Shown: positions 18,477-53,976 of the stretch, piece by piece | Numbering within the stretch: position 1 is the stretch's first letter | Layout of the letters: each line of letters opens with the position of its first letter | Assembly (NCBI GenBank): GCA_022703445.1 | Contig: JAKLDR010000001.1 | Location: forward strand, 23,884 to 87,883 | DNA length: 64,000 nt | Reading direction: 5' to 3' | Source: Planctomycetota bacterium | GTDB taxonomy: Bacteria; Planctomycetota; SZUA-567; JAKLDR01 | Translations under genes and position numbers: made by a program | Notes under the pieces: generated by a model | The model's input: the letters and a program-made list of their open reading frames with translations, nothing else | The model's database searches: none | Told to the model about the DNA's origin: nothing

Positions 18477-18487
18477 GAGGACTGACG

Positions 18488-25692: not shown

Positions 25693-25704
25693 GAGCCTGC
25701 CCCG

Positions 25705-34944: not shown

Positions 34945-34993
34945 GGTCGCTCTCCCTATCCTTCAAGTCTTCGCCCGAACCGAAGCCCACCAA

Positions 34994-39059: not shown

Positions 39060-39082
39060 AGCCTTTCCTCCTTCCTCAATGC

Positions 39083-40504: not shown

Positions 40505-40569
40505 TAGCTATTATAACAAAGGAATAGACATTTATGGCCGACCGGTGTATCCTCTTTCACCGGAGGATC
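40505..40569 (+). promoter_or_regulatory. Conserved 5' control region of regulator R3 (second copy of 7545..7610)
   Basis: tagctattataacaaaggaatagacatttatggccgaccggtgtatcctctttcaccggaggatc matches the copy at 7545..7610 at most positions. Differences cluster in the loop of the CCGGTG/CACCGG stem. Confidence 0.5.
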
Positions 40570-40575
40570 CACCCG

Positions 40576-41706
40576 ATGGCCGGCAAACTGGTCGCCACGC
40601 CCAAGTACCAGATGGTCAAGCAGGCACTCATGGACCGGATCGCCGGCCGGCGCTACTCGGCCGAGCTGGCCGTGCCGCCCGAGAGGGTCCTGGCCCAGGA
40701 GCTGGGCGTGGCGCCCATGACCGCCCGGCGCGCGCTGCAGGAGCTGGTCAGGGAAGGCATCCTGATCCGGGAGCGCGGCCGGGGCCGGGGCACGTTCGTG
40801 CGTCAGGGCGCCGTCCCGCCGGGCGGCGAGCCGGTCAAGGCGGATGCGCGCCTCCGCCGGGTGGGAGTCATCCACGCCTACGACTGGGAGCGGTTGCAGG
40901 CCTCGCCGGTCTACCATCTGACCTTCCTGGAGGTGCAGCGCGAGTGCGCCCGGCGCGGCGTGGGGCTCGAGCTGCTCCCCGTTCAGCCCGGCGACGGGAA
41001 GAACCCGGCCGAGCTCGCGCGCCAGGCCGGCTGCCAGGCGCTCATGGTTCTGGACTGGACCGAAGGGGCGCCCGAGCTTCTGGCGATGGCCGCCGACCGG
41101 CTTCCGGTGGTGGTCGCCGGGCCATTCCAGGAGATGGCCCCGCTCTCCTTCGTGGCCTCCAACGACTTCCAGGGCGCCTGGGCGGCCACCCGGCACCTCC
41201 TCGACCTGGGCCACCGGCAGGTGGCCATGGTCAACTTGCGGAAGATCGCCAAGGCCTCCTCCGACCGGCAGGGCGCCTGGGAAATGGCCCTGGACCGCGC
41301 GGGCATCGAGTCGGACGGCCTGCTCTACCGGGTCGGCCGGCTCAAGCAGGGCCAGGGCGAGGACTTTCAGGAGATAAAGGCCGCGCTGGTCGAGGCGTTC
41401 CGCCTCCGGCCGCCGCCTTCGGCGATCTTCGCGCGCGACGGCTTCATGGCCACCGCGGCCATCGGCGCGTTCCGCGAGCTCGGCCGGCGCTGCCCGGAGG
41501 ACGTCAGCGTGGCCTGCGTGGGCCGGTTCTTCGAGCAGGCCCTGGACGGCCCGCGGCTGACGGCCGCCCAGTACGAGGACGGGGCGCTGGGGCGCGAGCT
41601 GCTGCAGCTCGTCGAGGACCAGCTCGCCGGGCGGCGCTCTTCTCCGGCCGGCGTGCTTCTGCCCATGCGGGTGGTCGAGGGGCAGACCACGCGGAAGGTC
41701 GAGTGA
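40576..41706 (+). CDS. Transcriptional regulator R3, GntR-type HTH + LacI/PBP1-like domain (376 aa), near-duplicate of R2
   Basis: ORF 40534..41706 trimmed to MAGKLVATPKYQMVKQALMDRI. Long identical runs with R2, e.g. ARLRRVGVIHAYDWERLQASPVYHLTFLEVQRECARRGVGLELLP and PRLTAAQYEDGALGRELLQLVED. Confidence 0.9.
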   Translation: MAGKLVATPKYQMVKQALMDRIAGRRYSAELAVPPERVLAQELGVAPMTARRALQELVREGILIRERGRGRGTFVRQGAVPPGGEPVKADARLRRVGVIHAYDWERLQASPVYHLTFLEVQRECARRGVGLELLPVQPGDGKNPAELARQAGCQALMVLDWTEGAPELLAMAADRLPVVVAGPFQEMAPLSFVASNDFQGAWAATRHLLDLGHRQVAMVNLRKIAKASSDRQGAWEMALDRAGIESDGLLYRVGRLKQGQGEDFQEIKAALVEAFRLRPPPSAIFARDGFMATAAIGAFRELGRRCPEDVSVACVGRFFEQALDGPRLTAAQYEDGALGRELLQLVEDQLAGRRSSPAGVLLPMRVVEGQTTRKVE

Positions 41707-41734
41707 GAGGACGGAGGCGGTGCCGAAAGCGGAT

Positions 41735-41820: not shown

Positions 41821-41838
41821 AGAAAGTGGAGATCGACC

Positions 41839-44442
41839 ATGCGACTGATTCCGACCTGCGCAGCGGTTCTGATGACTCTGACCGGCTTGGCCCCCGCCGG
41901 CGAGCTCAAGAGCCTGCCCGAGAATAAGTGGACCGAGCTGTCCGCCGGCACCGGGAACCCCTACGTCAACCCGGTCTACGATCCGGGGACGAAGCAGATT
42001 GTCATGCTCCTGGCCGGCGGCAACGGCACTGCGCACCTCGACCCGGCGACGGGCCAGTGGCAGCCGGGCCTGGCCCCGGCCGGCGGGGCCGAGGGTGGCG
42101 ACCAGCCGCTCCTCAAGCCCTACGCGCTCGCCGGGGGGCGGCCCAACTATAAGAATATGCTCATTTACCACATGACCGCCTACGACTCCAAGCGCCAGAG
42201 GCTGATCGCCGGCGCGGGATCCTTCATGGCCGCCTATGACCCCCGGGAGAGGAAGTGGACCGACCTCGGAGCCAAGGTCGAGCTCTACGGCAAGCAGTAC
42301 CCGGGGGCCGCGCCGGTGACCTGGGGCTCGATGTGCTACGACCCGGTCAACGACGAAATCGTCTGCTTCTCCGGCGGCGCCATCTACAACTTCGACAACT
42401 GGGAGAAGGACAAGGAGGTCACCGGCGCCTTCGGCACCTGGATCTTCAGCTGCGAGAAGAACCTCTGGACCCGCCCGAAGATCGGGCCGGCGGCGTTCTA
42501 CAAGGCGCGCGACCTGGTCCGCCCGGTTCGCATCCAACTTCAGGATGTGATGAGCGCCACCGGCGAGGCCATCGTCGTGGACCGCGATGGCAAGGCCGAG
42601 GAGGCCAGAAAGCAGGTTGCCGGACAGGCCGTGGCCATCGAGAAGGCGGCTGCGGATCTCAAGAAGCTTGCCGCCGACGTGAAGGCACTCGGCACCGAGC
42701 CGCGGCTGGCCTCGGCTGCAGGCAAGCTCGAATCCGCAGCTGGCAAGCTCGTCAAGGACGGCTCCCTCGACGACATCTACAAGGCCCAGTTCGAGGCCCT
42801 GAAGCTCGTGACCGCCGCGGTCGACGAGGACCTCTGGAGCCACCCGCACTACCGGACGCTCTCGCGGATGGTCTACCTGCCGGAGCAGAAGGCCATCCTG
42901 CTCTTCGGCGGCCACGACCAGAACCAGATGCTCAACGACACCTGGCTGTACGACTGCACCAAGCGCGAGTGGCTGAAGAAGAGCCCCAAGACGCTGCCCC
43001 GGCCGCGGATGATGCAGGTCATGGTCTACGACGCGAAGCTCAAGGCGGCGGTCATGGCCGGCGGGTACTCCAGCTACTGGTTCGAGCGTAAGGACCAGGT
43101 CTGCGAGGAGGTCTGGACCTACGACGCGGCGGCCGACGACTGGAAGCTGGTCCTGGGCGAGTTCCCCTTCAAGCGCGGGGAGCCGTCCTACTTCGCGGAG
43201 TACAGCGAGGCCGACGATGCCATTGTCATGGTCCGCGGCGGGCGCGAGACCTTCGCGCTGCGGCTGGCGCCTGGCGCAGCGCTTCCCGCCCCGAAGACCG
43301 AGGCCTTTCCCAAGCCGGAAGACATCGAGCCCTTCCTGCCGCCGAAGGAGGACCCGGCGGTCGTTGAGCGCTGGAAGGCGCTGCCGGCCAACACCTGGGT
43401 CCCGGCCGACCCTCCCGGCTGGGAGCCGGGCGAGCACGGTTGGGGCATGATGGGCATGAACGGCCGGCTGCACGCCGCGATCATGTGGGGCGGCGGGCAC
43501 TCCACCCACCAGGCCAACGAGATCAGCCTGTACTTCCCCGGGGCCAACCGATGGGTCCTGGCCTACCCTCACCACCGGATCGACATCCCGCCCTGGAACA
43601 AGGGCTGCGGCAACGCCGGCGGCGTGGACCTGCGCGGCGGGGTCTTCAACGAGCACGCCCGGCGGGGCCTGTCCGGCAACGGCGGCAAAACGCTGATCAA
43701 CTTCCAAATCTTCAGCCCCTACTGGTACGGCCCGGAGGCCTTCTTCAAACAGCCCGAGTCCTGGGGCCGGACCACCACCTTCGAGTTCGACATGTTCTCC
43801 CGGCGCTGGCGGATGCCCCTGCCGGCCGTCGGGACCGCCGGCATGTGCTACCCGTACAACGCCAAGAACACGGTGATGGCCGTGGATGCCAGCGGCGCAC
43901 GCTACTGGGATTCGGTCGAGGGGACCTGGAAGGTGGCCAGCGACGCCAAGTGCCCGACGCCCCCGGGCGCCGGCGAAGGGGCTGGGAACCTCTTCATCGA
44001 GAAGCGCAACCAGGTGGTGGTCATCGGCCCGGTCGGCAAGGAGGGCACGATCCAGACTTGGGCCCTGGACATCGCCGCCGGCGCCTGGAAGAATGTGGAC
44101 CCCAAGGGCGTCCCGCCCGGCCGGCCCACGGCGCTGGCCTACTGCGAGGCCGACGACTGCGTCTACGCCGGCTGCTTCACCGGCTTCGACAAGAAGACGC
44201 CCGATGGGCAGGAGGCGGTTTACTCGTTCAAGAAGAACGAATGGACCAGTCTCCCCACAAAAGTCCAGAAGCGGGTCATCAAGCCCGGCCAGCCCTGGAG
44301 ACCCGAGGGCATGGGGGCGCACCACACCGGCTGGAGCAAGATCGCCTACAGCCCGCGCTACAACCTGCTCATGAGCTTCCAGGAGAACGGCGGCATGTGG
44401 GTCATGCGCCCAGACTTCGAGAAGCTGGATTGGGGGAAGTGA
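41839..44442 (+). CDS. Secreted Kelch-type double beta-propeller protein, paralog B1
   Basis: ORF 41737..44442 trimmed to MRLIPTCAAVLMTLTGLAPAGE|LKSLPENKW. Kelch blades (MVYLPEQKAILLFGGHDQNQMLNDTWLYDCTKREW). Helical insert (AIEKAAADLKKLAADVKALG..). Second module WKALPANTWVPADPP...MWGGGHSTHQANEI. Tail: MRPDFEKLDWGK. Confidence 0.9.
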   Translation: MRLIPTCAAVLMTLTGLAPAGELKSLPENKWTELSAGTGNPYVNPVYDPGTKQIVMLLAGGNGTAHLDPATGQWQPGLAPAGGAEGGDQPLLKPYALAGGRPNYKNMLIYHMTAYDSKRQRLIAGAGSFMAAYDPRERKWTDLGAKVELYGKQYPGAAPVTWGSMCYDPVNDEIVCFSGGAIYNFDNWEKDKEVTGAFGTWIFSCEKNLWTRPKIGPAAFYKARDLVRPVRIQLQDVMSATGEAIVVDRDGKAEEARKQVAGQAVAIEKAAADLKKLAADVKALGTEPRLASAAGKLESAAGKLVKDGSLDDIYKAQFEALKLVTAAVDEDLWSHPHYRTLSRMVYLPEQKAILLFGGHDQNQMLNDTWLYDCTKREWLKKSPKTLPRPRMMQVMVYDAKLKAAVMAGGYSSYWFERKDQVCEEVWTYDAAADDWKLVLGEFPFKRGEPSYFAEYSEADDAIVMVRGGRETFALRLAPGAALPAPKTEAFPKPEDIEPFLPPKEDPAVVERWKALPANTWVPADPPGWEPGEHGWGMMGMNGRLHAAIMWGGGHSTHQANEISLYFPGANRWVLAYPHHRIDIPPWNKGCGNAGGVDLRGGVFNEHARRGLSGNGGKTLINFQIFSPYWYGPEAFFKQPESWGRTTTFEFDMFSRRWRMPLPAVGTAGMCYPYNAKNTVMAVDASGARYWDSVEGTWKVASDAKCPTPPGAGEGAGNLFIEKRNQVVVIGPVGKEGTIQTWALDIAAGAWKNVDPKGVPPGRPTALAYCEADDCVYAGCFTGFDKKTPDGQEAVYSFKKNEWTSLPTKVQKRVIKPGQPWRPEGMGAHHTGWSKIAYSPRYNLLMSFQENGGMWVMRPDFEKLDWGK

Positions 44443-44443
44443 C

Positions 44444-47161
44444 ATGAAACTCGCGACTACGATCATCCTCGGATTGGCAGTCCCCTTCGCGGCGGCCCTG
44501 CCGCTCGCCGCCGGCGAACTGCCCGCCAACAAGTGGACCCGGCTCGAGACCAAGGCCGAGCCCGGCTACGTCTGGAGCGGGCCGGTGTGGGTCCCGTCGC
44601 GCGGGCAGCTCCTGCACTGGGGCGGGCAGGAGCACGGCAAGCCCAGCCGCAACGATGTCCGGGCCTTCGATGCGGCGGCGCTCGACTGGGCCTCGGACTA
44701 CGAGAGCGACCCGCCGAGCGGCGCCTCGGGGCAGAGCTACGCCGGCGTCGGCGGCATGGCCAAGTCCGGCCGGCCGCGGCCCTATTACGTGATCCAGGGC
44801 GGCTGCTGGGACTCCAAGCGCGAGCAGCTCGTCTACACCATGAAGGGTCTGATGGCCGCCTACGACCCCAAGGCCAAGACCTGGAAGGACCTCGGCGCCA
44901 AGACGGTCATGCCCTGGCCGGTGGAGTACATCACCGACACGATCGCCTTCAAGACCGAGACGCCCGGCGGCCCGCCGGTCTACGGCGTGGGCACCTGCTA
45001 CGACCCGGAGAACGACGAGATCGTGCTCTTCCCGCACTTCGATGCCAAGAACCGCATGCTCCGCGACGCGACCGGGCAGATCACCGGCCACTACGGCACC
45101 TTCCGCTACAGCTTCAAGGACAACGCCTGGACGCTGGTGAGTGACTCGATTGGCTCGGACGAGGTCAAGGCTGCGCGCAAGGGGCTCGTCGCGGTCATGG
45201 CCAAGGTCAGCTCCGCCATGGACGCGGCGTGGGTCCTGAATCGCAAGCCGGATCCAGCCAAGGCGGCGGAGGCCGCCAAGCAGGTCGAGGCCGCCGCGGG
45301 CGAACTCGAGAAACTCGCCGTGCCGGCGGATGCCAAGGCGGGCCTCGCGCCGGTTGCCGGGCTGCTCAAGTCCGCGGCCGCGGCGCTCTCCGGCGGGAAG
45401 GCCGGCGACGCCATGAAGCCGGCCCGCGACGCGCTCTGGGCCGTGAACGAGGCCCTCGACGGCGCGCTCCGCGTCGAGCCACCGGCGCGGACCGCGGCGT
45501 CGATGGTCTACGACCCGAAGAACAAGTGCATCGTGATGTTCGGCGGGCAGACCACCGTCTCGCGCACCGACATCGGCGCGGGGCTGGCCCACACCGGCCT
45601 GGACGACACCTGGCTCTACGACGTCAAGACGAAGCAATGGCGCGAGGTGGCCAAGGCCAACCGCCCGCCGAGGACGCGCATCCCGCTGCTCGCCTACGAT
45701 CCGGAGAGCGGCCTGGTGCTGCTCGTGACCATCTCCGGGAACGTCTGGGACTCGCGCGTCCCGCGCAAGGTCGCCCTATGGACGCTCGACGCCGCCAAGG
45801 GCGAGTGGAGCAAGCGCGACGAGCAGCCCTGGGTCGGCGAGATCGTCACCAATTCCGGCGGCGGCAGCGAGGGGCCCAAGGCCCAGATGCCCATGGACAT
45901 GTTCGGCTTCGACGCGAAGAACCGGCTGCTCCTGGTCATGCAGCCGTTCAAGGGCGGGCAGCTCACCTGCGCCATGAAGCTGGACCTGGCCAAGCTGTCG
46001 TCCGAGCCGGCCCCGGCCGCGCAGCCCGCGCCGCCGATCAAGCCGTACGCGCCGGATCTGACCGACGACCCGGCCTGGGTCGCGAAGCTCAAGGCCCTGC
46101 CGGCCAACACCTGGGTGGCGGCCAAGCCGCCACAGGAACCTTCGCGGCGCGACTGGGGCATCATCACGGTCGACCCGCAGCGCGGGTGCCTGGTGTACTT
46201 CGGCGGCGGGCACTCCTCCTACCAGTGCAACGACGTGGCCGTCTACTCTGTGGGCGGCAACAAGTGGGTCACCGGCGCCGGCGACCACAACGGCCACGTG
46301 CCCAACAACGAATGGGAAGGTTCGACCCTGGGTCACCGCGGCGGCCCGCCCACCGGCCACCAGCGCAATACCTACCAGTCGTTCGACGGCCGGATGTACC
46401 TCTTCTACGGGACGCAGGACAAGCTCCCGGGCAACTACATCTTCCACGCCGACCCGGACTACGCCCGCTTCTACGACCTGGACCGCGGCGGGGTCTGGCG
46501 CGACCTCAAGATCGGGGCCATCGAGCGGCCCGAGAAGGTGCCGCCGGCGCTCTATGTCTCGGTCGCCGATCCGAAGGGCCGGCTCTTCACGCTGATCGGG
46601 GAGGCCCCAGGCTACTACGCGGCCAACAACATCCGCTTCTTTGTCAGCTGCCTGGACCTCAATGAGAACAAGCTCGTCGTCAAGGACGTGCCCAAGCCCT
46701 TCCCGGAGCAGCGCGGCCTGGGCGAGGGCCGGCCCTTCTGCTACGCCTCCGACCGCGACCAGATCATTCTCATGAACGGCAAGCCGGAGGATGCCTCCAG
46801 GAACTACAGCGAGGACGCCAAGAAGTTCCCGCTCAAGCAGGTCACCTACGCCTACGACTTCAAGGAGAACAAGTTCTCGGAGCTGCCCGCCAAGAAGACG
46901 CCACCCGTACGGCCCGTCCAGGTAGTCGAGTACTGCGAGGCCCAGAAATGCCTGCTCGCCGTGCTCGGCGACCAGCAGTGGGTCTACTCCTTCGAGAAGG
47001 GCGACTGGGCCGAGCTGGAAATGAAGACCGAGGGTGGCAAGATGGGCTTCCAGCATCCCTACAGTCAGATGGTCTGGGTCGCGAAGTACGGTGTCTTCGT
47101 CAACTTCGCCGGCAACACCTGGGTGATGCGCCCGGACTTCAGCCAGGTGAAGTGGGAATAG
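44444..47161 (+). CDS. Secreted Kelch-type double beta-propeller protein, paralog B2
   Basis: Signal ..PFAAALPLAAGE|LPANKW. Same architecture as B1. Second module LKALPANTWVAAKPP...YFGGGHSSYQCNDV. Tail: MRPDFSQVKWE. Starts 1 nt after the B1 stop. Confidence 0.9.
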   Translation: MKLATTIILGLAVPFAAALPLAAGELPANKWTRLETKAEPGYVWSGPVWVPSRGQLLHWGGQEHGKPSRNDVRAFDAAALDWASDYESDPPSGASGQSYAGVGGMAKSGRPRPYYVIQGGCWDSKREQLVYTMKGLMAAYDPKAKTWKDLGAKTVMPWPVEYITDTIAFKTETPGGPPVYGVGTCYDPENDEIVLFPHFDAKNRMLRDATGQITGHYGTFRYSFKDNAWTLVSDSIGSDEVKAARKGLVAVMAKVSSAMDAAWVLNRKPDPAKAAEAAKQVEAAAGELEKLAVPADAKAGLAPVAGLLKSAAAALSGGKAGDAMKPARDALWAVNEALDGALRVEPPARTAASMVYDPKNKCIVMFGGQTTVSRTDIGAGLAHTGLDDTWLYDVKTKQWREVAKANRPPRTRIPLLAYDPESGLVLLVTISGNVWDSRVPRKVALWTLDAAKGEWSKRDEQPWVGEIVTNSGGGSEGPKAQMPMDMFGFDAKNRLLLVMQPFKGGQLTCAMKLDLAKLSSEPAPAAQPAPPIKPYAPDLTDDPAWVAKLKALPANTWVAAKPPQEPSRRDWGIITVDPQRGCLVYFGGGHSSYQCNDVAVYSVGGNKWVTGAGDHNGHVPNNEWEGSTLGHRGGPPTGHQRNTYQSFDGRMYLFYGTQDKLPGNYIFHADPDYARFYDLDRGGVWRDLKIGAIERPEKVPPALYVSVADPKGRLFTLIGEAPGYYAANNIRFFVSCLDLNENKLVVKDVPKPFPEQRGLGEGRPFCYASDRDQIILMNGKPEDASRNYSEDAKKFPLKQVTYAYDFKENKFSELPAKKTPPVRPVQVVEYCEAQKCLLAVLGDQQWVYSFEKGDWAELEMKTEGGKMGFQHPYSQMVWVAKYGVFVNFAGNTWVMRPDFSQVKWE

Positions 47162-47171
47162 GAGAGACCCG

Positions 47172-49859
47172 ATGAGAGCCCTGAGCCTTGCCGCCACGAT
47201 CCTGGCCACGCTGACCGCCTCGGCTGTCTCCGCCGGCGAATCCGGCGGCATGCCCGAGTTGCCGGTCAACAAGTGGACCCTGCTGCCCACCAAGTCGGCG
47301 CCGCTCTACTGGCACGCCATGCCGGTCTACGCCCCGAGCCGTGGGCAGGTCTTCTTCTGGGGTCGGGACGGAGCCAGCGGCGGGGGCGGGGAGTCGGGCA
47401 TCGCCCGCAACGACATCTGCGCCTTCGACGCCGCCAAGGGCGAGTGGGTCTCCGACGTCCCCAGCGCCTCGCGCAAGGAACTGGCCGACGCCCGCAACGC
47501 CAACCTCGGCGTGGGCTTTGCCGGCCGCGCGGCCATGCTCCCCGGCGGCACGCCCGTGCCCTCGACCATCTCCTGCGGGGGAACCTGGGACTCGAAGAGG
47601 AACGAGATCGTCTACACGGTGGGCGGCCTGACCTTCGCCTACAACCCCGAGGCGAAGAAGTGGCGCGACCTCAAGGCCGAAAAGGCGCCGCGCGTCTACG
47701 GCCCCGGCGCCGGCTACGATCCGGTCAACGACGAGATCGTGCTCTTCCCGCACTTCAACGCCAACAACAACGATCTTGCCCGGGTCAACGGCAACGTGAC
47801 CATGCACCAGGGCACCTGGGTTTACAGCTTCAAGGACAACACCTGGCGCCGCGCGGGCGACTCCTTCGGTTCCGAGGAGGTGAAGAAGGCCCGCAAGGCG
47901 CTCCTGGAACTCATCGCCAAGGTCAGCGCGGCGACCGACGGCGCCTGGACGCTGCGGCGCACCAAGGACGCAGTCAAACCCGAGGATGTCCAGAAGGGCT
48001 TCGCCGAGGCGGCCGCCGAGTTAGACAGGCTGCCGATGCCCGCCGACGCGAAAGCGGTGCTCGCCAAGGCAGCCGCGCCGCTTAAGGAAGCATCCGACGC
48101 CGCCGCGGCCGGCAAGTGGGACGAGGCCCTGGCCGCCGGCGGGCGGGCCCTGTGGGTCTGCGACGAGACGCTCGACAAGCCGTTGCGGGTCGAGCCGCCC
48201 GCCCGTTGCGCCACGCCCCTGGTCTACGATCCCAAGAACCAGTGCCTGGTCATGTTCGGGGGGCACACCGGCCTCGTGCGCCTCGACCTCCAGACTCCCG
48301 AGAACAAGGGCGGCGAGCCCGGGCGCCTGAACGACACCTGGATCTACGACTGCAAGACGCGGCAGTGGCGCGACGCCTCCAAGGGCACCCGTCCGCCGCC
48401 GACGCTCTGGCCGGGCGTGGTCTACGACCCGGTTTCCGGGCTGGTGCTGCTCGTCACCCGCACCGGCAACCCCTGGAACGCCGCGGCCGGAGGCAAGGCC
48501 GCCATCTGGGGTTTCGACGCCGCCAAGATGGAGTGGAGCAAGCTCGACGAGCAGGCCTGGCCGGGGCCGGTCTGCGGCAACGCCTGGACCGGCTGGGGCA
48601 CGGTCATGCAGGAGGTGGCGCTCGACGCCAAGGCCGGACTGCTGCTTCTCCTACAGGTGCGCCGTGAGGGGAACAGTGCCTCGCAGGAAACCTTCGCGCT
48701 CAAGCTCGACGTATCGAAGATGACTCCCGCCCCCGCGCCGGCCTGGAAGGAGCCCGAGCCCATCCGGCCGCAGGTGATCCCGCCCGACGATCCGGCGGTG
48801 GTCGCCAAGCTCAAGGCGCTGCCCGCCAACAAGTGGGTCCACGTCCGGCCGCCCAACGACGGCCCCACCCGCGACTGGGGCAACGCCGCCTGCGACCCGG
48901 TCCGCGGGCACGTCTACTACTTCGGCGGCGGGCACTCCACCTATCAGGTCAACGACGTGGCCATCTACGCGCCGGGCGTCAACAAGTGGTTCTACGCCGC
49001 CGGCGACCACAACGACTGGGTCCCGCCGGCCGGCTGGGACGGCTCCAACCCCGGCCTGCGCGGCGGCAGGAACGCCGGCCACCAGCGCAACTCCTACGTG
49101 GCGCTCGACGGCCGGATGTACTCGGGGCTCGGCGCCGAGAGCCGGCGCTGGGGCGCGGAGAGCGCCAAAAGGGACTACCAGCGCTACTCCTGGTTCTACG
49201 ACGTGGACCGCGGCGGCGTCTGGCGGATGGTGCCGCTCGAGGCGAAGAAGGGCGAGGGCGTCGCCGGCCTCTGGGGCGGCACGCACCTCTCCTCGCCCGA
49301 CGGCCGGCTGTTCGGCTTCGGCGGGGCGCTCGAGCCCTACGACGGGCGCTTCTCGCCCGGCGAGATCTACTTTGCGGCGTTCGACGCCTTCCGCAACCAG
49401 CTCTCCGTGCAGAAGGTCGCGCCCGGCCCGAACTGCGATCCCAACGAGGATCGGCCGTTCTGCGTCCTTGGCGACAAGAACCAGGTCTTCTTCTACGAGT
49501 GCGCCATGGAGAACAAGGCCGTCAAGAAGCAGGGCACCTGGGTCTACGACATCAAGACCAACGCCTTCATCGACCTGAAGCCCAAGCGCCAGCCGCCAGC
49601 CGACCCGCAGACCGTCGAGTACCTCGCCGGCCAGGACGCGGTCTTCGCGGTGATCCGCGGCGGCGCGCAGTGGGTATACTCCTTCAAGGAGAAGGCATGG
49701 GCGCCGCTGCCGCTCGAGTCCGACGGCAAGCTGGGCTTCGCCACGCCCTACGCCCAGACGGTCTACTCAGCGAAGTACGGGGTGCTGGTCAACCTCGGTT
49801 ACGCCAGCGGCGGCACCGCGGTGATGCGGCCGGACGTGAGCCAGATGAAGTGGGAGTAG
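47172..49859 (+). CDS. Secreted Kelch-type double beta-propeller protein, paralog B3
   Basis: Signal ..LTASAVSAGE|SGG..LPVNKW. Closest by eye to B2 (EEVKKARKALLELIAKVSAATDGAW versus DEVKAARKGLVAVMAKVSSAMDAAW). Second module LKALPANKWVHVRPP...YFGGGHSTYQVNDV. Tail: MRPDVSQMKWE. Confidence 0.9.
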   Translation: MRALSLAATILATLTASAVSAGESGGMPELPVNKWTLLPTKSAPLYWHAMPVYAPSRGQVFFWGRDGASGGGGESGIARNDICAFDAAKGEWVSDVPSASRKELADARNANLGVGFAGRAAMLPGGTPVPSTISCGGTWDSKRNEIVYTVGGLTFAYNPEAKKWRDLKAEKAPRVYGPGAGYDPVNDEIVLFPHFNANNNDLARVNGNVTMHQGTWVYSFKDNTWRRAGDSFGSEEVKKARKALLELIAKVSAATDGAWTLRRTKDAVKPEDVQKGFAEAAAELDRLPMPADAKAVLAKAAAPLKEASDAAAAGKWDEALAAGGRALWVCDETLDKPLRVEPPARCATPLVYDPKNQCLVMFGGHTGLVRLDLQTPENKGGEPGRLNDTWIYDCKTRQWRDASKGTRPPPTLWPGVVYDPVSGLVLLVTRTGNPWNAAAGGKAAIWGFDAAKMEWSKLDEQAWPGPVCGNAWTGWGTVMQEVALDAKAGLLLLLQVRREGNSASQETFALKLDVSKMTPAPAPAWKEPEPIRPQVIPPDDPAVVAKLKALPANKWVHVRPPNDGPTRDWGNAACDPVRGHVYYFGGGHSTYQVNDVAIYAPGVNKWFYAAGDHNDWVPPAGWDGSNPGLRGGRNAGHQRNSYVALDGRMYSGLGAESRRWGAESAKRDYQRYSWFYDVDRGGVWRMVPLEAKKGEGVAGLWGGTHLSSPDGRLFGFGGALEPYDGRFSPGEIYFAAFDAFRNQLSVQKVAPGPNCDPNEDRPFCVLGDKNQVFFYECAMENKAVKKQGTWVYDIKTNAFIDLKPKRQPPADPQTVEYLAGQDAVFAVIRGGAQWVYSFKEKAWAPLPLESDGKLGFATPYAQTVYSAKYGVLVNLGYASGGTAVMRPDVSQMKWE

Positions 49860-49874: not shown

Positions 49875-51317
49875 ATGGCTTTCGCGCTGGACAAACCCGA
49901 CAGGAACCGCGGCATCATCGAGGTCACCGGGGAGGTGCTCCACCGGATGGCCGAGGGACTGGGCTTCAACTGGTACTCCTGCTACGGGCCGGAGACCTAT
50001 CCCGCACCCGGCGACGACGGGCGCTGGGCGCGGATCTTCGCCCACGCCGAATGGCTGAACATGCGCTTCATCCGCTTCGGTCAGTCCGCGGGCAGGATCA
50101 GCGACGACGCCGGAACGTTCCGCCCGGACGACCTGTCGTTCGACCAACTCCGGCGCGTGAACGGTTGGGCCGAACGCTGGGGCGCTTCGATCGTCCTGGA
50201 TCCGTTCGGCATTCCCAAGGCGTTTCAGTACGAGCCGTGGCCGGGGGCGCCGGGCGTCTGGGGGCGCGAGGGGAGCTACCACCTGGGCGTCCGCGACATC
50301 GACGCCTACGTCGGCCGCTTCGTGGTTCCCTACGTGCGGCATGTGGTCAGGGAACTCGGCTGCAGGGCCGTGACGTGGTTCAACCACGTTAACGAGCCCC
50401 TGCGCGGGGCCGTGTGCGCCACGCCTCCGGGCATCGACGATCATGCCCGGTACGTCGAGGTGCTCAAGGCCATCCGGCAGGGGCTCGACGAGGCGGGGCT
50501 GTCCGGCATCGGCAACATGGGACCGGACACGCACACCCACCACTACTGGCCGATCGACCACATGCTGGAGATCGGCGCGGACCCCGATCCGGCGATCCAG
50601 GCCTATTGCATGCATCACTACCAGAGCCGCTTCGACTGGGACGCGCCGACGGGCGTGGTCAACTCCAAGCCCATGACCGAGACCGTCGAGCAGCACCTCA
50701 GGCGGTATTGCCGTTACGCCCAAGGGAAGCGCAAGCCGTACCTGGTCACGGAGATCGGCATGTTCCATTTCGGGTGGGCCACCGGCGACCCGGCGGGCAT
50801 CGCCCGTCACGACAACTCCGTCCTGGAGGCCGAATTCATCGTCCGCGGCATGGCCGAGGGCGCCGACGGGTTCCTGCGCTGGGCGTGGCTCAACCCCGGC
50901 ACGCACGACGGCTGGTGGCAGCTGATTGACACGGTTGGCGGCAGCGACGCACCGCTGCGGGACCCGTACCATGGCTACGGGACGCTCTATCGCTACGTGT
51001 CGCGGAGGCCGGAAATCGTGAAGGTGGAAGTCGCACAGGAAACGGGCGGCGGGCCGCGGACGATCCACGCCACGGCGACGATCAACGCCGACGGCTCGCG
51101 CACGTTGCTGGTGGTCAACGATTCCTACGCGACCTGCGCGCCGGTCACGGTCAGGCTTCCCACCGGCGGGGCGGCGGTCGTGCGCAAGATCGTCAACGAC
51201 CCGGTCCGGAAGCACCACGAATGCGAGCCGCTGGCGGTCTCGGGCGGGGCCATCGAGATAGCCGACGCCCTGTCCCCGATGAGTCTGACCGTGTACACGA
51301 CATGCGAGAAGTCGTGA
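49875..51317 (+). CDS. Cytoplasmic clan GH-A (TIM-barrel) glycoside hydrolase, family not assigned
   Basis: No signal peptide. WFNHVNEP (acid/base NEP) and PYLVTEIG (nucleophile TE) sit at typical spacing. The C-terminal ~100 aa are beta-rich (sandwich). Family-level assignment needs a dbCAN search. Confidence 0.75.
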   Translation: MAFALDKPDRNRGIIEVTGEVLHRMAEGLGFNWYSCYGPETYPAPGDDGRWARIFAHAEWLNMRFIRFGQSAGRISDDAGTFRPDDLSFDQLRRVNGWAERWGASIVLDPFGIPKAFQYEPWPGAPGVWGREGSYHLGVRDIDAYVGRFVVPYVRHVVRELGCRAVTWFNHVNEPLRGAVCATPPGIDDHARYVEVLKAIRQGLDEAGLSGIGNMGPDTHTHHYWPIDHMLEIGADPDPAIQAYCMHHYQSRFDWDAPTGVVNSKPMTETVEQHLRRYCRYAQGKRKPYLVTEIGMFHFGWATGDPAGIARHDNSVLEAEFIVRGMAEGADGFLRWAWLNPGTHDGWWQLIDTVGGSDAPLRDPYHGYGTLYRYVSRRPEIVKVEVAQETGGGPRTIHATATINADGSRTLLVVNDSYATCAPVTVRLPTGGAAVVRKIVNDPVRKHHECEPLAVSGGAIEIADALSPMSLTVYTTCEKS

Positions 51318-51339
51318 GCAACTACCAGGGAGGACGGGC

Positions 51340-52542
51340 ATGCACTGGAGAATCGTGACGGCAGCCGTTCTGGCCCTGCTGGCCATCGATGGCCCGGGCC
51401 ATCGTACCCGAGCCGGCGAGAGCGCCCCGGCGGATCAGGCCGTCGACGTCTGGATCCCTAGCGGCCAGTCCAACGCGTGCGGACGGGGACGACCCCCGGG
51501 CCCGCCGGCCAGTGCGGCTGTGGAGGCCTTCGACCCCAGGGGCGGCAAGTGGGTTCCGGCCCGCGATCCTCTTCCGGGCATGGGCACCTCAGGCGTCGGT
51601 CCCTGGCAGGCGGCGGCGGCGGAGTACGCCGCCAGAACCGGCCGCAAGGTCCGGCTGGCCGGCTGGGCGGAGGGCGGCATCAGCATCGACTTGTGGGACG
51701 CGGCCAAGGGCAGCGGCTGGCGCGCGCTCTCCGGCGTGCTGGAGCGCGCCGGCAAAGGAGCCGGCGTCCTTCTGTGGTACCAGGGAGAAGCCGACTGCGG
51801 CAAGGCGCCCGACAGGTACCTGGCCCAGTTCAAGGACCTGACCGAGCGCGTCCGGAAGGGCTGCGACAACCCGGGGATGACGGTGGTCGTGGTCCAACTC
51901 TCCGCCTACCAGGCAGGCTACGACCTGGGCAAGGACCCGCCCGCGAAGAAGCCTTTGGCCAGGGGCGACAAGAGCCAGATCATGCTCATGCGCGAGACCC
52001 AGCGCCAGTGCGTCCTCGGTGACGACCGGGCCATTCTGGTCACGGCCATGGGGCGCAAGACGCAGGACTACTGGCACCTCAGCACCGAGGGGCAGACCGA
52101 ACTGGGCGGGGAGATCGGCCGGGCGCTGGCCGCCCGGTTGCACAAGGTCGACACCGGCTGGCCTGGGCCGGTGCTGGACGCGGCCGTGCTGGGCGACGAC
52201 GGCAAGACCGTGATTGCGCACTTCGCCGAGGTCAAGAAGCTGACCGGGCTCGCGGCCGCCGACTTCGGCTTGGTGGGAACAGGCGCCAAGGCCGCGGAGG
52301 TCCAGGCGGCGGCGGCCAAGGCCGAGGCGTTGGGCGGGACGCTGGTCAAACTGACCTTCGAAGAGCCGGTCAAGCTGCCGGCCGCCCTGGTCTACGGTCT
52401 GGGCAGCGCGCCCGCCGCTGGGCTGGTCGACGAGGCCGGCAACCGGGCGCCCGCCGTGCAGCTGGAGATAACCCAGGGCAAGGCCCCGGAAGACAAGGAG
52501 ACCGCCGCGCCCAACGGGGCGGGAGCGGCGGCCCGGCGCTGA
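51340..52542 (+). CDS. Secreted SASA/DUF303-type carbohydrate O-acetylesterase-like protein 1
   Basis: Signal ..HRTRAGE|SAP. IPSGQSNACG (GQSN catalytic Ser motif) and LLWYQGEADC are characteristic of sialate O-acetylesterase-like enzymes. More divergent than the next gene. Confidence 0.75.
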   Translation: MHWRIVTAAVLALLAIDGPGHRTRAGESAPADQAVDVWIPSGQSNACGRGRPPGPPASAAVEAFDPRGGKWVPARDPLPGMGTSGVGPWQAAAAEYAARTGRKVRLAGWAEGGISIDLWDAAKGSGWRALSGVLERAGKGAGVLLWYQGEADCGKAPDRYLAQFKDLTERVRKGCDNPGMTVVVVQLSAYQAGYDLGKDPPAKKPLARGDKSQIMLMRETQRQCVLGDDRAILVTAMGRKTQDYWHLSTEGQTELGGEIGRALAARLHKVDTGWPGPVLDAAVLGDDGKTVIAHFAEVKKLTGLAAADFGLVGTGAKAAEVQAAAAKAEALGGTLVKLTFEEPVKLPAALVYGLGSAPAAGLVDEAGNRAPAVQLEITQGKAPEDKETAAPNGAGAAARR

Positions 52543-52577
52543 TGCGCCCGGACTTCAGCCAGTTGAAGCGGAGTTAG
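52542..52577 (+). pseudogene. 12-codon relic of a Kelch-paralog 3' end (MRPDFSQLKRS-stop)
   Basis: atgcgcccggacttcagccagttgaagcggagttag versus the B2 3' end atgcgcccggacttcagccaggtgaagtgggaatag (47126..47161). A 23-nt exact run (tgatgcgcccggacttcagccag) is shared, and I count 30 of 36 nt identical. It lies in the spacer between the two esterase genes. Confidence 0.7.
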
Positions 52578-52592
52578 CGAAGAGAGGTCGGC

Positions 52593-53948
52593 ATGGTCCC
52601 CAAGCATTTCGCCATGGTCATGGTTTCGGTGTTGTCCTTTGGCACCGGAGCTCTCTGCGCCGCCGAGCCGGCCGCGGCTCCCGCCGACGTCAGGCTCCCC
52701 GGCATCTTCAGGGACAACATGGTCCTGCAGCGCGAGATGCCCGTGCCGGTCTGGGGCATGGCTGCTCCCGGCGGAGAGGTGACGGTCAGGATCGCCGGTC
52801 AGGAGGCCAAGGGCCAGGCCGACGCGAAAGGGAACTGGTCGGTGAAGCTCGCCGCCATGGACGCTGGCGGACCGCACGAGATGACGGTCTCCGGCAGGAA
52901 CACGCTGACTCTCAAGAACGTCATGGTTGGCGAGGTCTGGCTCTGCTCCGGACAGTCGAACATGGAGAAGCCCGCATACGCCGGGCACCCGATCCCCGAC
53001 GCCAAGCATCCCGATCTCCGGTTGCTCAATGGGCCGTGGGTCTCCTGGGTGGCCTGCGATCCGAACAGCGTGGCCCGTTTCTCGGGGGCGGCCTACTTCT
53101 TCGGCCGCGAGGTTCAGGAGAAGCTTAAGGTCCCAGTGGGGCTGATCCTCGGCGCGTCGGGCGGCACGCGGATCGAGCACTGGACGCCGGCGGTCGGGTA
53201 CGAGGGGCCCGCCGGGATCGGCAAGGCCAGGGCCGAGGACGGCGGCTGCTACAAGGAGCGGATCCGGCCCTTCGCCCCGTTCGCCATCCGGGGGGTCATC
53301 TGGTACCAGGGCGAGAGCAACTGCGACGGCGCCGATCATGATTTCTACACGAAGAGGATGGAGGCGCTGGTCGGCGGCTGGCGGAAAGTCTGGAAGCAGG
53401 GCGACTTCCCCTTCTACTTCGTGCAGCTCGCCCCATGGAAGTACGACTCCGCCAAGCCGCAGATGCTGCCGCTGATGTGGGAGGCCCAGACGAAGGCGCT
53501 GAAGATTCCCAACACCGGGATGGCGGTGATAACCGACATGGGCAATGCTGAGGATATCCATCTAGATGCCCGCGGTCAGTCCGTGGTCGGCCACCGCCTG
53601 GCCCTGCTGGCGCTGGCCAGGACTTACGGCCAGGACAAGCTGGTGTGCTCCGGGCCGGTCTACAAGTCTATGGCCGTTGAGGGCGGCAAGGTTCGCCTGA
53701 AGTTCGAGAGCGTCGGCGGCGGATTGGCTTCGCGCGACGGCAAGCCTCTCGACTGCTTCGAGATCGCTGGCGAGGACCGCAAGTTCGTCCCCGCCAAGGC
53801 GGAGATCGACGGAGAGGGCGTGGTCGTGTCCGCCGATGGCGTCACCGCCCCGGCCGCGGTGCGCTTCGGCTGGTCCAACACCGCCATGCCCAACCTGATC
53901 AACAAGGAGAAGCTGCCGGCGGCGCCGTTCCGCACGGACAGCTGGTGA
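52593..53948 (+). CDS. Secreted SASA-type sialate/carbohydrate 9-O-acetylesterase
   Basis: Signal ..GALCAAE|PAA. LPGIFRDNMVLQRE, GEVWLCSGQSNME, GVIWYQGESN and FPFYFVQLAPW are the textbook motifs of this family. Confidence 0.9.
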   Translation: MVPKHFAMVMVSVLSFGTGALCAAEPAAAPADVRLPGIFRDNMVLQREMPVPVWGMAAPGGEVTVRIAGQEAKGQADAKGNWSVKLAAMDAGGPHEMTVSGRNTLTLKNVMVGEVWLCSGQSNMEKPAYAGHPIPDAKHPDLRLLNGPWVSWVACDPNSVARFSGAAYFFGREVQEKLKVPVGLILGASGGTRIEHWTPAVGYEGPAGIGKARAEDGGCYKERIRPFAPFAIRGVIWYQGESNCDGADHDFYTKRMEALVGGWRKVWKQGDFPFYFVQLAPWKYDSAKPQMLPLMWEAQTKALKIPNTGMAVITDMGNAEDIHLDARGQSVVGHRLALLALARTYGQDKLVCSGPVYKSMAVEGGKVRLKFESVGGGLASRDGKPLDCFEIAGEDRKFVPAKAEIDGEGVVVSADGVTAPAAVRFGWSNTAMPNLINKEKLPAAPFRTDSW

Positions 53949-53976
53949 AGCCCCGGCCAGGAAGGAGAAGGAGCCC

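What the first reader, a model, noticed from the sequence alone, without database searches (positions are those of the whole stretch)
41839..49859. Tandem triplet of Kelch-type double propellers with a conserved helical insert, a GGGH motif and a conserved C-terminal tail (two more copies at 15882..21139)
All five paralogs (860-920 aa) share one unusual layout:
- A signal peptide, then (L)P(A/E/V)N(K/T)W.
- Kelch blades interrupted by a ~110-aa Ala/Lys/Glu-rich helical segment, e.g. AIEKAAADLKKLAADVKALG and KQVEAAAGELEKLAVPADAK.
- A second module that restarts with L(K)ALPAN(T/K)WV and carries an invariant GGGH(S/A)..(Q/M).N.(V/I) motif.
- In four of the five, an ending of MRPD(F/V)xxx(K/D)W(E/G).

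The repeated PANxW entry motif suggests an ancient internal duplication of a whole propeller. B2 and B3 are clearly the most recent duplicates. I know of no characterised protein with this arrangement, though that is a statement from memory and not a search result. The conserved tail could be the closing strand of the propeller or a sorting tag.
Basis: partly seen in the sequence, partly recalled or inferred. Interest (0 to 1): 0.65.

Follow-up and report, generated by a model that had tools for sequence, protein, structure and literature searches.

The report
Secreted double Kelch propellers in glycan operons
Five paralogous genes encode secreted proteins built from two six-bladed Kelch propellers plus a helical insert. 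They belong to an uncharacterised family found mainly in Planctomycetota, sitting in sugar-regulated polysaccharide operons and, in other bacteria, in exopolysaccharide gene clusters, which makes it a candidate new glycan-acting family.

Summary
Five intact paralogous ORFs (B1 41839-44442, B2 44444-47161, B3 47172-49859, A1 15882-18476, A2 18488-21139) share the described layout.

An AlphaFold2 model of B2 (pLDDT 93.6, pTM 0.92) shows:
- two six-bladed Kelch propellers;
- a five-helix insert between blades 3 and 4 of the first propeller;
- an ordered Pro-rich linker between the propellers.

PxNxW supplies the outer strand of each propeller's last blade. MRPD is the last β-strand of the closing blade, not a sorting tag. 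GGGH is the Kelch Gly-Gly doublet plus an invariant His.

The motifs hold outside this genome: GGGH in 99 of 99 homologs, the tail in 78 of 99. A collinear profile match (probability 98.9%) supports a whole-propeller duplication.

No solved structure, NCBIfam model or paper gives a function. Fold matches are generic Kelch domains only.

Context points to glycans:
- GntR/LacI-type regulators, GH123-like, GH130 and SASA esterase neighbours;
- homologs inside Wzx/Wzy sulfated-EPS clusters;
- fusions to lyase-like modules and to ECF sigma factors.

Best reading: extracytoplasmic glycan-recognising, probably glycan-cleaving, proteins that use the conserved face of the second propeller. Whether they are catalytic is unproven. 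I rate it a new variant of a known fold, of moderate interest.

The parts
41839..44442 (+). B1, double Kelch propeller paralog (867 aa), first gene after the GntR/LacI-type regulator
   Evidence: ORF. Kelch Pfam hits. Alignment with GGGH and tail. Ortholog at 75% identity in L006.
44444..47161 (+). B2, double Kelch propeller paralog (905 aa); the modelled protein
   Evidence: ORF. AF2 model pLDDT 93.6, pTM 0.92. 115 homologs. The start lies 1 nt after the B1 stop.
47172..49859 (+). B3, double Kelch propeller paralog (895 aa)
   Evidence: ORF. 47% identical to B2. Ortholog at 85% identity in L006.
15882..18476 (+). A1, double Kelch propeller paralog (864 aa) in the second operon
   Evidence: ORF. 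Pfam Kelch. Alignment. Ortholog at 89% identity in L008.
18488..21139 (+). A2, the most divergent paralog (883 aa). It keeps GGGH and the tail Arg but lacks MRPD..KWE.
   Evidence: Its subfamily is the one fused to a PcRGLX-like module in L082 (36.8% identity).
44444..44515 (+). B2 predicted Sec signal peptide (aa 1-24)
   Evidence: Basic residue, hydrophobic stretch and LAAG|E read from the sequence. pLDDT below 50 for residues 1-17. Hydropathy scan.
44522..45979 (+). B2 N-terminal six-bladed Kelch propeller (aa 27-512), starting with PANKW
   Evidence: DSSP strands of the model. Kelch Pfam stretches.
45158..45460 (+). B2 five-helix insert (aa 239-339) between blade 3 strand D and blade 4 strand A of the N-propeller
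   Evidence: Helices 239-265, 271-290, 295-301, 304-316 and 320-339, pLDDT 96-98. Translation. Length distribution in the family.
45980..46099 (+). B2 ordered Pro-rich inter-propeller linker (aa 513-552)
   Evidence: pLDDT 95-98 and helix 543-550. Length 33-59 residues across the family.
46100..47131 (+). B2 C-terminal six-bladed Kelch propeller (aa 553-896), from PANTW to VMRPD
   Evidence: DSSP. Foldseek best matches are six-bladed Kelch domains, TM 0.45-0.65.
46202..46213 (+). GGGH (aa 587-590): the Kelch Gly-Gly doublet at the end of strand B of blade 1, plus the invariant His
   Evidence: Translation. 99 of 99 homologs. 93 of 103 wider relatives have GGGH, and most of the rest have S/A/D-GGH.
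46274..46375 (+). Long conserved loop between blades 1 and 2 of the C-propeller (aa 611-644: AGDHN...W.G...RGG...HQRN.Y), with invariant His639
   Evidence: No regular secondary structure, but strongly conserved.
47123..47158 (+). C-terminal tail VMRPDFSQVKWE (aa 894-905): the last β-strand of the closing blade, then a short helix; Arg896 is invariant
   Evidence: Translation. Strand 892-896. Arg in 99 of 99. Tail regex matches 78 of 99.
40534..41706 (+). GntR-HTH plus LacI-type sugar-binding-domain regulator, directly upstream of B1
   Evidence: Pfam PF00392 and PF13377. Ortholog at 90% identity in the same position in L006.
49875..54891 (+). Downstream genes on the same strand: a 480-aa candidate clan GH-A glycosidase, two SASA-type acetylesterases and a GH130
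   Evidence: Pfam SASA twice and GH130. Weak GH5/GH30C hints, E 0.02. NEP and TEIG motifs read from the translation.

Best explanation
The five genes encode secreted or periplasmic proteins of one uncharacterised family.

Architecture. Each protein is a rigid body of two six-bladed Kelch β-propellers that arose by duplication of a whole propeller. PxNxW provides the outer 'velcro' strand of each propeller's last blade. MRPD is the final strand of the closing blade. The first propeller carries a helical bundle inserted in a blade 3-to-4 connection.

Conserved site. The second propeller carries the family-defining polar residues: the His of GGGH, a second invariant His (H639), a conserved acid (E761), and in the B2/B3 subfamily also Arg, Asn, Gln, Tyr and Cys. 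These lie in the B-C and D-A loops. In Kelch propellers those loops make up the ligand-binding 'top' face around the central axis.

Proposed function. The proteins recognise, and probably cleave or otherwise process, complex glycans outside the cytoplasm. The likely substrates are substituted (acetylated, sulfated or acidic) bacterial exopolysaccharides. The proposed site is a His/His/acid site on the second propeller, either metal-assisted or lyase-like. The first propeller and helical insert would serve as a substrate platform.

Regulation and gene arrays. Expression is controlled by the adjacent GntR/LacI-type sugar-responsive regulators. The tandem paralogs are old subfamilies, presumably with different specificities.

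What is shown and what is inferred. Shown: the architecture, motif conservation, duplication and genomic association. Inferred: the location of the site on the top face, glycan as the ligand, and catalysis.
For: Architecture:
- The AF2 model has pLDDT 93.6 and pTM 0.92, with the linker at pLDDT 95-98, which implies a fixed domain arrangement.
- The N- and C-module profiles match collinearly.

Conservation:
- H590, H639 and R896 are present in 99 of 99 homologs. E761 is present in 95, R641 in 94, N642 in 95, Y644 in 98, Q875 in 95 and C766 in 94.
- GG(G)H persists in about 100 wider relatives.

Context in the window:
- Both arrays follow GntR/LacI-type regulators.
- They sit with GH123-like genes (two), NHL/FlgD-Ig propellers, SASA esterases (two) and GH130.
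- B1/B2 and B2/B3 are 1 and 10 nt apart.
- A metatranscriptome contig spans the B2/B3 junction.

Context elsewhere:
- GH123-like and NHL genes lie next to family members in 13 of 79 loci each.
- Other neighbours include GH95, GH35, GH42, GH76, BNR_4 and a pectate-lyase-fold protein.
- The Motiliproteus sp. SC1-56 homolog (36% identity, all motifs present) lies inside an EPS biosynthesis cluster with glycosyltransferases, sulfotransferases, a pyruvyl transferase and a deacetylase.

Fusions:
- P0190 is a PcRGLX-like (PL26-type) module fused to the double Kelch, within a Wzx/Wzy sulfotransferase cluster.
- P0208 has a weak heparinase II/III-like N-terminus fused to the Kelch part.

Precedent: propeller lyases PL24, PL25 and PL42 use conserved His/His plus an Arg neutraliser, with or without Tyr, on the anterior face (PMC8377490).
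Against: - No sequence or fold similarity to any CAZyme. The best fold matches are protein-binding Kelch domains and the specifier proteins TFP/ESP, at TM 0.45-0.65 and 11-15% identity.
- Three ECF sigma-TM-double-Kelch fusions fit a ligand-sensing, non-catalytic role as well as they fit catalysis.
- B1, A1 and A2 have lost several of the near-invariant residues (R763, C766, Q594). Only H590, H639, R896 and an acid at position 761 are universal.
- Two of the contexts inspected contain no CAZyme-like genes.
Confidence: 0.45

Rival explanations
1. Non-catalytic glycan-binding proteins. The double propeller only captures or presents poly- or oligosaccharides to neighbouring enzymes or transporters. 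In the sigma-factor fusions it senses them. The conserved His and Arg residues form a binding site, not an active site.
For: - Kelch domains are typically binding modules, and the top fold matches are all binders apart from TFP/ESP.
- ECF sigma-TM-Kelch fusions look like one-component sensors.
- Fusion to lyase-like catalytic modules resembles the way carbohydrate-binding modules are appended.
- Whole-chain Foldseek lists the BT4663/BT4673 glycan-sensor double propellers among its top hits, but only at TM about 0.2.
Against: - The same polar residues (H590, H639, acid at 761) stay invariant across subfamilies only 22-30% identical, which presumably see different ligands. That pattern is more typical of catalytic or cofactor sites.
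- 870-900 residues is large for an accessory binder.
- The homologs in EPS biosynthesis clusters sit where processing enzymes are usually found.
Confidence: 0.33
2. Metal-dependent redox or other non-glycosidic enzyme on a Kelch scaffold. Models would be the galactose/glyoxal oxidase Cu-radical site, or the Fe(II) site of the Kelch specifier proteins, acting on a sugar or a small molecule.
For: - Two invariant His, a conserved acid, and conserved Tyr (Y644, Y873) and Cys (C766) in the B2/B3 subfamily.
- TFP and ESP, which are Kelch enzymes, are among the best fold matches to the C-propeller.
Against: - Six blades, not the seven I recall for galactose oxidase.
- No Pfam hit to PF07250 (glyoxal oxidase N-terminus) or PF09118, the galactose/glyoxal oxidase models as I recall them.
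- Cys766 and R763 are lost in B1, A1 and A2.
- The organism and its relatives come partly from anaerobic digesters, where an O2-dependent oxidase is unlikely.
- Fold similarity to TFP/ESP is generic (TM about 0.57, 12-14% identity).
Confidence: 0.08
3. Sugar mutarotase or epimerase of the NanM/YjhT type: a periplasmic six-bladed Kelch enzyme that accelerates anomer interconversion of a released sugar.
For: - Extracytoplasmic Kelch proteins in a sugar-utilisation operon.
- Two sialate-O-acetylesterase-family (SASA) genes lie downstream.
Against: - No NCBIfam hit to the YjhT/mutarotase models at E up to 0.1.
- NanM is not among the top 50 fold matches.
- NanM, as I recall it, is a single propeller of about 350-390 aa with no helical insert and no second propeller.
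Confidence: 0.05
4. Envelope or surface structural proteins, or protein-protein interaction scaffolds unrelated to glycans. On this view the CAZyme neighbourhood is coincidental, in genomes that are rich in such genes.
For: - Two inspected contexts have no CAZyme-like neighbours.
- Planctomycete genomes carry many CAZyme genes, which raises the background chance of adjacency.
Against: - Association recurs across phyla and with both catabolic and biosynthetic glycan loci.
- There are physical fusions to lyase-like modules.
- Sugar-type regulators sit directly upstream in this window and in L002/L006.
Confidence: 0.09

Closest known systems
Six-bladed Kelch-repeat β-propellers (Pfam PF24681/PF13418/PF01344; for example KLHDC10, LZTR1, Keap1, muskelin)
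   Same: Repeat signature (hydrophobic strand, Gly-Gly, Tyr, Trp), six blades and velcro closure. Best Foldseek matches have TM 0.45-0.65. Pfam scores are above the curated cut-off.
   Different: Those are eukaryotic intracellular single propellers that bind proteins or peptides. Here there are two propellers in tandem with a helical insert and a signal peptide, the proteins are bacterial, they carry a GGGH/H639 constellation, and identity is only 11-15%.
β-propeller polysaccharide lyases PL24, PL25 and PL42 (ulvan lyases; FoRham1)
   Same: A propeller scaffold in polysaccharide-utilisation loci. The active site on the anterior face is built from conserved His/His plus an Arg neutraliser, with or without Tyr (PMC8377490), a residue set like the one conserved here.
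   Different: Those are seven-bladed, non-Kelch single propellers. They are absent from the top 50 fold matches and gave no Pfam hit. The resemblance is one of mechanism only.
Periplasmic double-propeller sensor domains of Bacteroides hybrid two-component systems (BT4663, BT4673)
   Same: Extracytoplasmic tandem propellers that recognise glycan fragments. They appear among the top whole-chain Foldseek hits. By analogy, some family members are fused to ECF sigma factors through a TM helix.
   Different: TM is only about 0.2. From my recollection, the HTCS sensors carry Reg_prop and Y_Y_Y domains, which gave no Pfam hit here, and are seven-bladed, non-Kelch and part of histidine-kinase proteins.
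NanM/YjhT N-acetylneuraminate mutarotase
   Same: From my own knowledge of the family: a bacterial periplasmic six-bladed Kelch enzyme encoded in a sugar-catabolic locus.
   Different: NanM is a single propeller. No NCBIfam hit was found, and it is not among the top fold matches.
GH74 xyloglucanases
   Same: From my own knowledge: two tandem β-propellers forming one catalytic unit for a polysaccharide.
   Different: From my own knowledge, those are seven-bladed Asp-box (BNR) propellers with catalytic Asp residues in the inter-domain cleft. No similarity was detected here.

Membership tests
Kelch-repeat β-propeller superfamily | Significant match to Kelch repeat or domain profiles | tested here: met
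   PF24681 scores 57-74 bits (cut-off 50) in all five, plus Kelch_1/2/3/4/6 above their cut-offs.
Kelch-repeat β-propeller superfamily | Four-stranded blades arranged as a closed propeller, typically six or seven blades | tested here: met
   DSSP of the AF2 model gives two sets of six four-stranded blades. The best Foldseek matches are six-bladed Kelch domains.
Galactose oxidase / glyoxal oxidase (AA5 copper radical oxidases) | Seven-bladed Kelch propeller with associated domains (Pfam PF07250 glyoxal oxidase N-terminus and PF09118, as I recall them) | tested here: not met
   No PF07250 or PF09118 hit at E up to 0.1. Six blades. Not in the top 50 fold matches.
Galactose oxidase / glyoxal oxidase (AA5 copper radical oxidases) | Cu site of two His and two Tyr, with a Cys-Tyr cross-link | not testable with these tools
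   Two invariant His and conserved Tyr and Cys exist in the B2/B3 subfamily, but Cys766 is lost in B1, A1 and A2. The geometry could not be examined because no coordinates were available.
NanM/YjhT mutarotase family | Match to the curated NCBIfam YjhT/mutarotase models | tested here: not met
   No NCBIfam family at E up to 0.1 for four proteins, and only an irrelevant sub-threshold hit for B2.
β-propeller polysaccharide lyases (PL24/PL25/PL42) | Seven-bladed propeller homologous to characterised members | tested here: not met
   Six-bladed Kelch propellers. No such entries among the top Foldseek hits. No PDB sequence or profile match.
β-propeller polysaccharide lyases (PL24/PL25/PL42) | β-elimination activity on uronic-acid-containing polysaccharide | not testable with these tools
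   Needs an enzyme assay.
HTCS-type periplasmic double-propeller sensors | Reg_prop repeats and a Y_Y_Y domain (as I recall the family), linked to a histidine kinase | tested here: not met
   No such Pfam hits. The proteins have only a signal peptide. Foldseek TM is about 0.2.
Sorting-signal proteins (PEP-CTERM, LPXTG, T9SS CTD and similar) | A C-terminal sorting motif followed by a hydrophobic helix, or a dedicated C-terminal domain | tested here: not met
   The tail is a β-strand of the last blade, pLDDT 91-98. There is no hydrophobic segment after residue 40.

The most novel reading that the evidence does not exclude
The GGGH double Kelch proteins found a new carbohydrate-active enzyme family: a lyase or hydrolase built on a tandem six-bladed Kelch scaffold, with a His/His/acid site that may bind a metal. 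The family would act on substituted bacterial exopolysaccharides. It would be used by EPS producers (Motiliproteus-type Wzx/Wzy sulfated-EPS clusters) to process their own polymer, and by Planctomycetota in sludge and sediments to eat it. Some copies would have been recruited as extracytoplasmic sensors of ECF sigma factors.
Probability: 0.33. Interest if true: 0.75.

Novelty: new variant of a known kind. Interest (0 to 1): 0.55.

Why it matters
Planctomycetota and related bacteria degrade complex glycans in sludge, sediments and soils, yet much of their glycan machinery is unannotated. This family is expanded in them: five copies in 64 kb here, and at least 12 loci in the closest MAG. It is tied to sugar-regulated operons, to EPS biosynthesis clusters and to lyase-like fusion partners, and it has no characterised member. 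If it is catalytic, it would add a new fold and architecture to the carbohydrate-active enzymes and give a handle on the turnover of bacterial EPS, which matters for the properties of wastewater biofilms and granules. If it only binds, it would be a new type of glycan receptor and sensor module for bacteria that lack SusC/D-type systems.

Tried and rejected
Searches that found no functional lead:
- PDB sequence search with B2 found nothing meaningful, best E 0.6.
- PDB profile search with 99 sequences found only single Kelch repeats of muskelin, BSU1 and KLHDC2.
- NCBIfam found no family.
- Foldseek with the full model returned generic double propellers at TM about 0.2 and single Kelch domains.
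- I then modelled the C-propeller alone to get cleaner domain-level matches. The result was again only Kelch binders and TFP/ESP.
- Five literature searches found no paper on this family.

Things I could not do or that proved wrong:
- I looked for the model coordinates, to measure whether the conserved residues cluster and where the helical insert packs. They are not exposed to the scripting environment, so the face assignment rests on strand topology.
- Short hits in the representative search (P0118, P0120, P0144) looked like stand-alone C-propellers. They begin inside the linker or the last N-blade, so they are truncated gene calls.
- The sorting-tag reading of the tail is rejected.
- The idea of a recent B2/B3 duplication is rejected.
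- PDB searches for the neighbouring unknown proteins (480 aa and 656 aa) gave nothing. Relaxed Pfam gave only sub-threshold hints: GH5/GH30C and Hepar_II_III_C.
Full report
**What is in the sequence**

The window has 69% G+C. Codon-position G+C picks out one clear gene per locus among many spurious antisense ORFs, for example a 1352-aa antisense ORF across B1.

- B1, 41839-44442
- B2, 44444-47161
- B3, 47172-49859
- A1, 15882-18476
- A2, 18488-21139

They are the only copies in the window, with pairwise tblastn E-values from 1e-24 to 0. Spacers are tiny: 1 nt between B1 and B2, 10 nt between B2 and B3, and 11 nt between A1 and A2. Each protein starts with a basic residue, a hydrophobic stretch and ...AGE, and has no other hydrophobic segment. 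They are therefore predicted to be Sec-exported soluble proteins.

Pfam sees only Kelch-type repeats (PF24681 at 57-74 bits against a cut-off of 50, plus Kelch_1/2/3/4/6). NCBIfam has no model for them.

In the five-way alignment, GGGH and the second P(A/D)N(T/K)W are invariant. The first PxNxW is present in four of five. The MRPD(F/V)...KW(E/G) ending is present in four of five.

**Architecture**

I built a 99-sequence alignment and modelled B2 with AlphaFold2. The model has mean pLDDT 93.6 and pTM 0.92. Its secondary structure reads as follows:
- a six-bladed propeller (about residues 27-512);
- five helices (239-339) inserted between the outer strand of blade 3 and the inner strand of blade 4;
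- a Pro-rich linker (513-552) that is itself confidently placed (pLDDT 95-98);
- a second six-bladed propeller (553-896).

A pTM of 0.92 for a 905-residue chain and the well-ordered linker argue for one rigid body, not beads on a string.

The motifs map onto this structure:
- The TWV of PANTWV (557-559) is a lone strand. It completes the last blade, whose other three strands are 876-879, 884-888 and 892-896. The last of these is VMRPD. PxNxW and MRPD are therefore the two halves of the 'velcro' closure. The tail is not a sorting signal.
- GGGH is the classical Kelch Gly-Gly doublet at the end of strand B of blade 1, followed by a His at the start of the B-C loop.
- A 34-residue, strongly conserved loop without regular structure (611-644, AGDHN...W.G...RGG...HQRN.Y) links blades 1 and 2 and holds the second invariant His.

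By standard Kelch topology, B-C and D-A connections lie on the ligand-binding 'top' face. On that basis H590, H639, R641, N642, Y644, E761, R763, Y873 and Q875 are all predicted to lie on the top face of the second propeller. The helical insert, also a D-A connection, emerges from the top face of the first propeller.

When the C-propeller was modelled alone (22 sequences, pLDDT 85.7), loops 589-598 and 615-628 fell to pLDDT 43-69, against 86-98 in the full-length model. This may mean they lean on the other domain. The shallower alignment is a confound.

**Internal duplication and age of the paralogs**

Profile-profile comparison of the N-module with the C-module gives its best hit as a collinear, end-to-end alignment: N 1-496 against C 6-359, probability 98.9%, E 1.6e-17. 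This supports duplication of a whole propeller, with the helical insert specific to the first copy.

B2 and B3 are 47% identical. All other pairs are 24-31% identical. Each of the five has its own ortholog at 75-89% identity in a syntenic contig of MAG SRR6007444_bin.47 (L006, L008), and further orthologs at 51-66% identity in other MAGs. The arrays are therefore old sets of subfamilies, not recent tandem duplicates.

**Distribution and motif conservation**

A search of 5.8 billion proteins returned 115 relatives of B2. They are annotated only as hypothetical, Kelch-repeat or 'galactose oxidase-like', the last being a label inherited from Pfam names. They come from Planctomycetota, Phycisphaerae, Brocadiia and Kiritimatiellia.

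A scan of species-representative genomes found 157 relatives (the best 80 were kept). Most are in Planctomycetota MAGs. Others are in Victivallales, a Myxococcales MAG and one cultured gammaproteobacterium, Motiliproteus sp. SC1-56. The closest MAG has at least 12 loci.

With a C-propeller profile against 1.84 billion cluster representatives, 226 proteins score E ≤ 1e-30. I estimate that about 60-80 of the top 150 are full-length matches to this module. By that estimate it is a modest, lineage-restricted family.

Conservation of individual features:
- GGGH: 99 of 99.
- MRPD-type tail: 78 of 99.
- H590, H639 and R896: 99 of 99.
- E761 95, R641 94, N642 95, Y644 98, C766 94, Q875 95.
- In a wider set of 103 relatives found with A2, 93 have GGGH and most of the rest have S/A/D-GGH.

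The near-invariant set reflects the B2/B3 subfamily. B1, A1 and A2 keep only H590, H639, R896 and an acid at position 761.

The helical insert is present throughout but varies in sequence and comes in two size classes.

**Comparison with known structures and families**

PDB sequence and profile searches give only single-repeat matches to eukaryotic Kelch proteins.

Foldseek with the whole model lists generic double propellers at TM about 0.2: WD40 proteins, tricorn, and the Bacteroides glycan sensors BT4663/BT4673.

Foldseek with the C-propeller alone lists six-bladed Kelch domains at TM 0.45-0.65 and 11-15% identity. These are KLHDC10, LZTR1, muskelin, Keap1 and the plant specifier proteins TFP/ESP.

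No glycoside hydrolase, lyase, oxidase or mutarotase appears among the listed matches. Five literature searches found no study of such proteins.

**Genomic context**

Both arrays sit in operon-like strings headed by a GntR-HTH regulator with a LacI-type sugar-binding domain.
- Regulator 7559-8746, then two GH123-like genes, an NHL propeller, A1, A2, a 656-aa unknown, an NHL/FlgD-Ig protein and an 871-aa unknown.
- Regulator 40534-41706, then B1, B2, B3, a 480-aa protein with NEP and TEIG motifs and weak GH5/GH30C hits, two SASA acetylesterases and GH130.

The association recurs elsewhere:
- GH123-like and NHL genes lie beside family members in 13 of 79 fetched loci each, from several genomes.
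- Other neighbours include GH95, GH35, GH42, GH76, BNR_4 and a pectate-lyase-fold protein, again with GntR/LacI regulators and tandem Kelch paralogs.
- Two contexts were uninformative.

In a quite different setting, the Motiliproteus homolog lies inside an exopolysaccharide biosynthesis cluster. It is full-length, 36% identical and has all motifs. The cluster holds GT1/2/4 glycosyltransferases, two sulfotransferases, a pyruvyl transferase, a deacetylase, an N-acetyltransferase and a GH127-like protein.

P0190 (2150 aa) fuses a PcRGLX-like (PL26-type) three-domain module to an A2-type double Kelch (36.8% identity to A2). It sits in a Wzx/Wzy cluster with the same accessory set.

P0208 fuses a region with the heparinase II/III His-Gly-His-Glu-Asp signature to the Kelch part. 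That Pfam hit is below threshold, E 0.0057.

P0074, P0081 and P0100 are ECF sigma factor-TM helix-double Kelch proteins encoded as single ORFs.

The window sequence itself is found in activated-sludge and anaerobic-digester metagenomes. A sludge metatranscriptome holds low-depth contigs over B1-B3 and the downstream genes, including one that spans the B2/B3 junction. This is weak evidence of expression and co-transcription.

**Interpretation**

The structural reading is solid. It comprises a secreted tandem six-bladed Kelch protein, a whole-propeller duplication, the velcro role of PxNxW and MRPD, and GGGH as Gly-Gly plus His.

That the ligand is a glycan is a well-supported inference. It rests on three independent kinds of association: catabolic operons with sugar regulators, EPS biosynthetic clusters, and fusion partners.

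Whether the proteins are enzymes or binders is open. Points in favour of catalysis:
- The same His/His/acid core persists across subfamilies that are only 22-30% identical.
- The homologs in EPS clusters sit where polymer-processing enzymes usually are.
- The residue inventory (two His, Arg, Tyr, Asn/Gln) matches what propeller lyases PL24/25/42 use on their anterior face (PMC8377490).
- A 2-His-1-carboxylate set also fits a metal site.

Points against catalysis:
- No relationship to any known enzyme was found.
- The sigma-factor fusions look like sensors.
- Several 'conserved' residues are lost in B1, A1 and A2.

I put catalytic glycan processing at about 0.45, binding or sensing only at about 0.33, and the remaining options together at about 0.22.

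**Novelty**

The fold is known. The family, its tandem architecture with a helical insert, its conserved site and its genomic associations are not described in any resource I could search. I classify it as a new variant of a known kind. Interest is moderate, and would be high if catalysis is shown.

Noticed in passing
window 41736-41816: A 30-bp-stem hairpin lies between the regulator stop (41706) and the B1 start (41839). It is built from about four heptad repeats (GGTGGAR / its complement CCACCTT). Predicted ΔG is -69.8 kcal/mol, z = -8.1 against shuffles. The motif occurs nowhere else in the window (6 overlapping matches, all here; 0.14 expected). It could be a terminator/insulator, an attenuator or an operator.
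   Followed up: partly
window 29806-32277 (+): An ECF sigma factor (regions 2 and 4) is fused through a TM helix (about aa 305-328) to an extracytoplasmic domain of about 490 aa with no Pfam match. Its sigma part resembles that of P0074/P0081, where the extracytoplasmic domain is a GGGH double Kelch. This suggests a lineage of sigma-TM-sensor proteins with swappable sensor domains.
   Followed up: partly
window 1043-2260 (-), 7559-8746 (+), 39083-40297 (-), 40534-41706 (+): Four paralogous regulators in 64 kb combine a GntR-type HTH with a LacI-type periplasmic-binding-protein sugar domain. Two of them head the Kelch operons.
   Followed up: partly
window 13300-15873 (+), 23077-25692 (+), 32332-34962 (-), 36348-39320 (-): A second expanded family of 860-990-aa NHL-repeat propeller proteins is present, some with an N-terminal FlgD-Ig domain. 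It co-occurs with the Kelch family in 13 of 79 loci from other genomes. Function unknown.
   Followed up: partly
window 8601-10643 and 10644-13334 (+): Two adjacent GH123-like genes (PF13320 at E 1e-17 to 1e-21, distant from characterised GH123). They are the most recurrent CAZyme-like neighbour of the Kelch family (13 of 79 loci).
   Followed up: partly
window 49875-51317 (+): A 480-aa protein with no signal peptide and no significant Pfam or PDB hit. It carries NEP (WFNHVNEPL) and TEIG (YLVTEIGMF) motifs and has weak GH5/GH30C hits (E 0.02). It may be a divergent clan GH-A glycosidase.
   Followed up: partly
window 21170-23140 (+) and 25693-28308 (+): Two unknown proteins lie in the A operon. 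The 656-aa one is conserved next to family members in L002, L008 and L030. The 871-aa one has a sub-threshold heparinase II/III C-terminal hit (E 0.04).
   Followed up: partly
L027 and L082 (EPS clusters outside the window): Both proteobacterial-type EPS clusters that carry a family member share an unusual accessory set: two sulfotransferases, an aminoglycoside-N-acetyltransferase-like gene, a GH127/C5-epimerase-like (α/α)6 protein and a polysaccharide deacetylase. This suggests a conserved pathway for a sulfated EPS.
   Followed up: no
window 40495-44553 (-) and similar: Very long antisense ORFs (up to 1572 aa) overlap the real genes. They are a by-product of 69% G+C and fail the codon-position G+C test.
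   Followed up: yes
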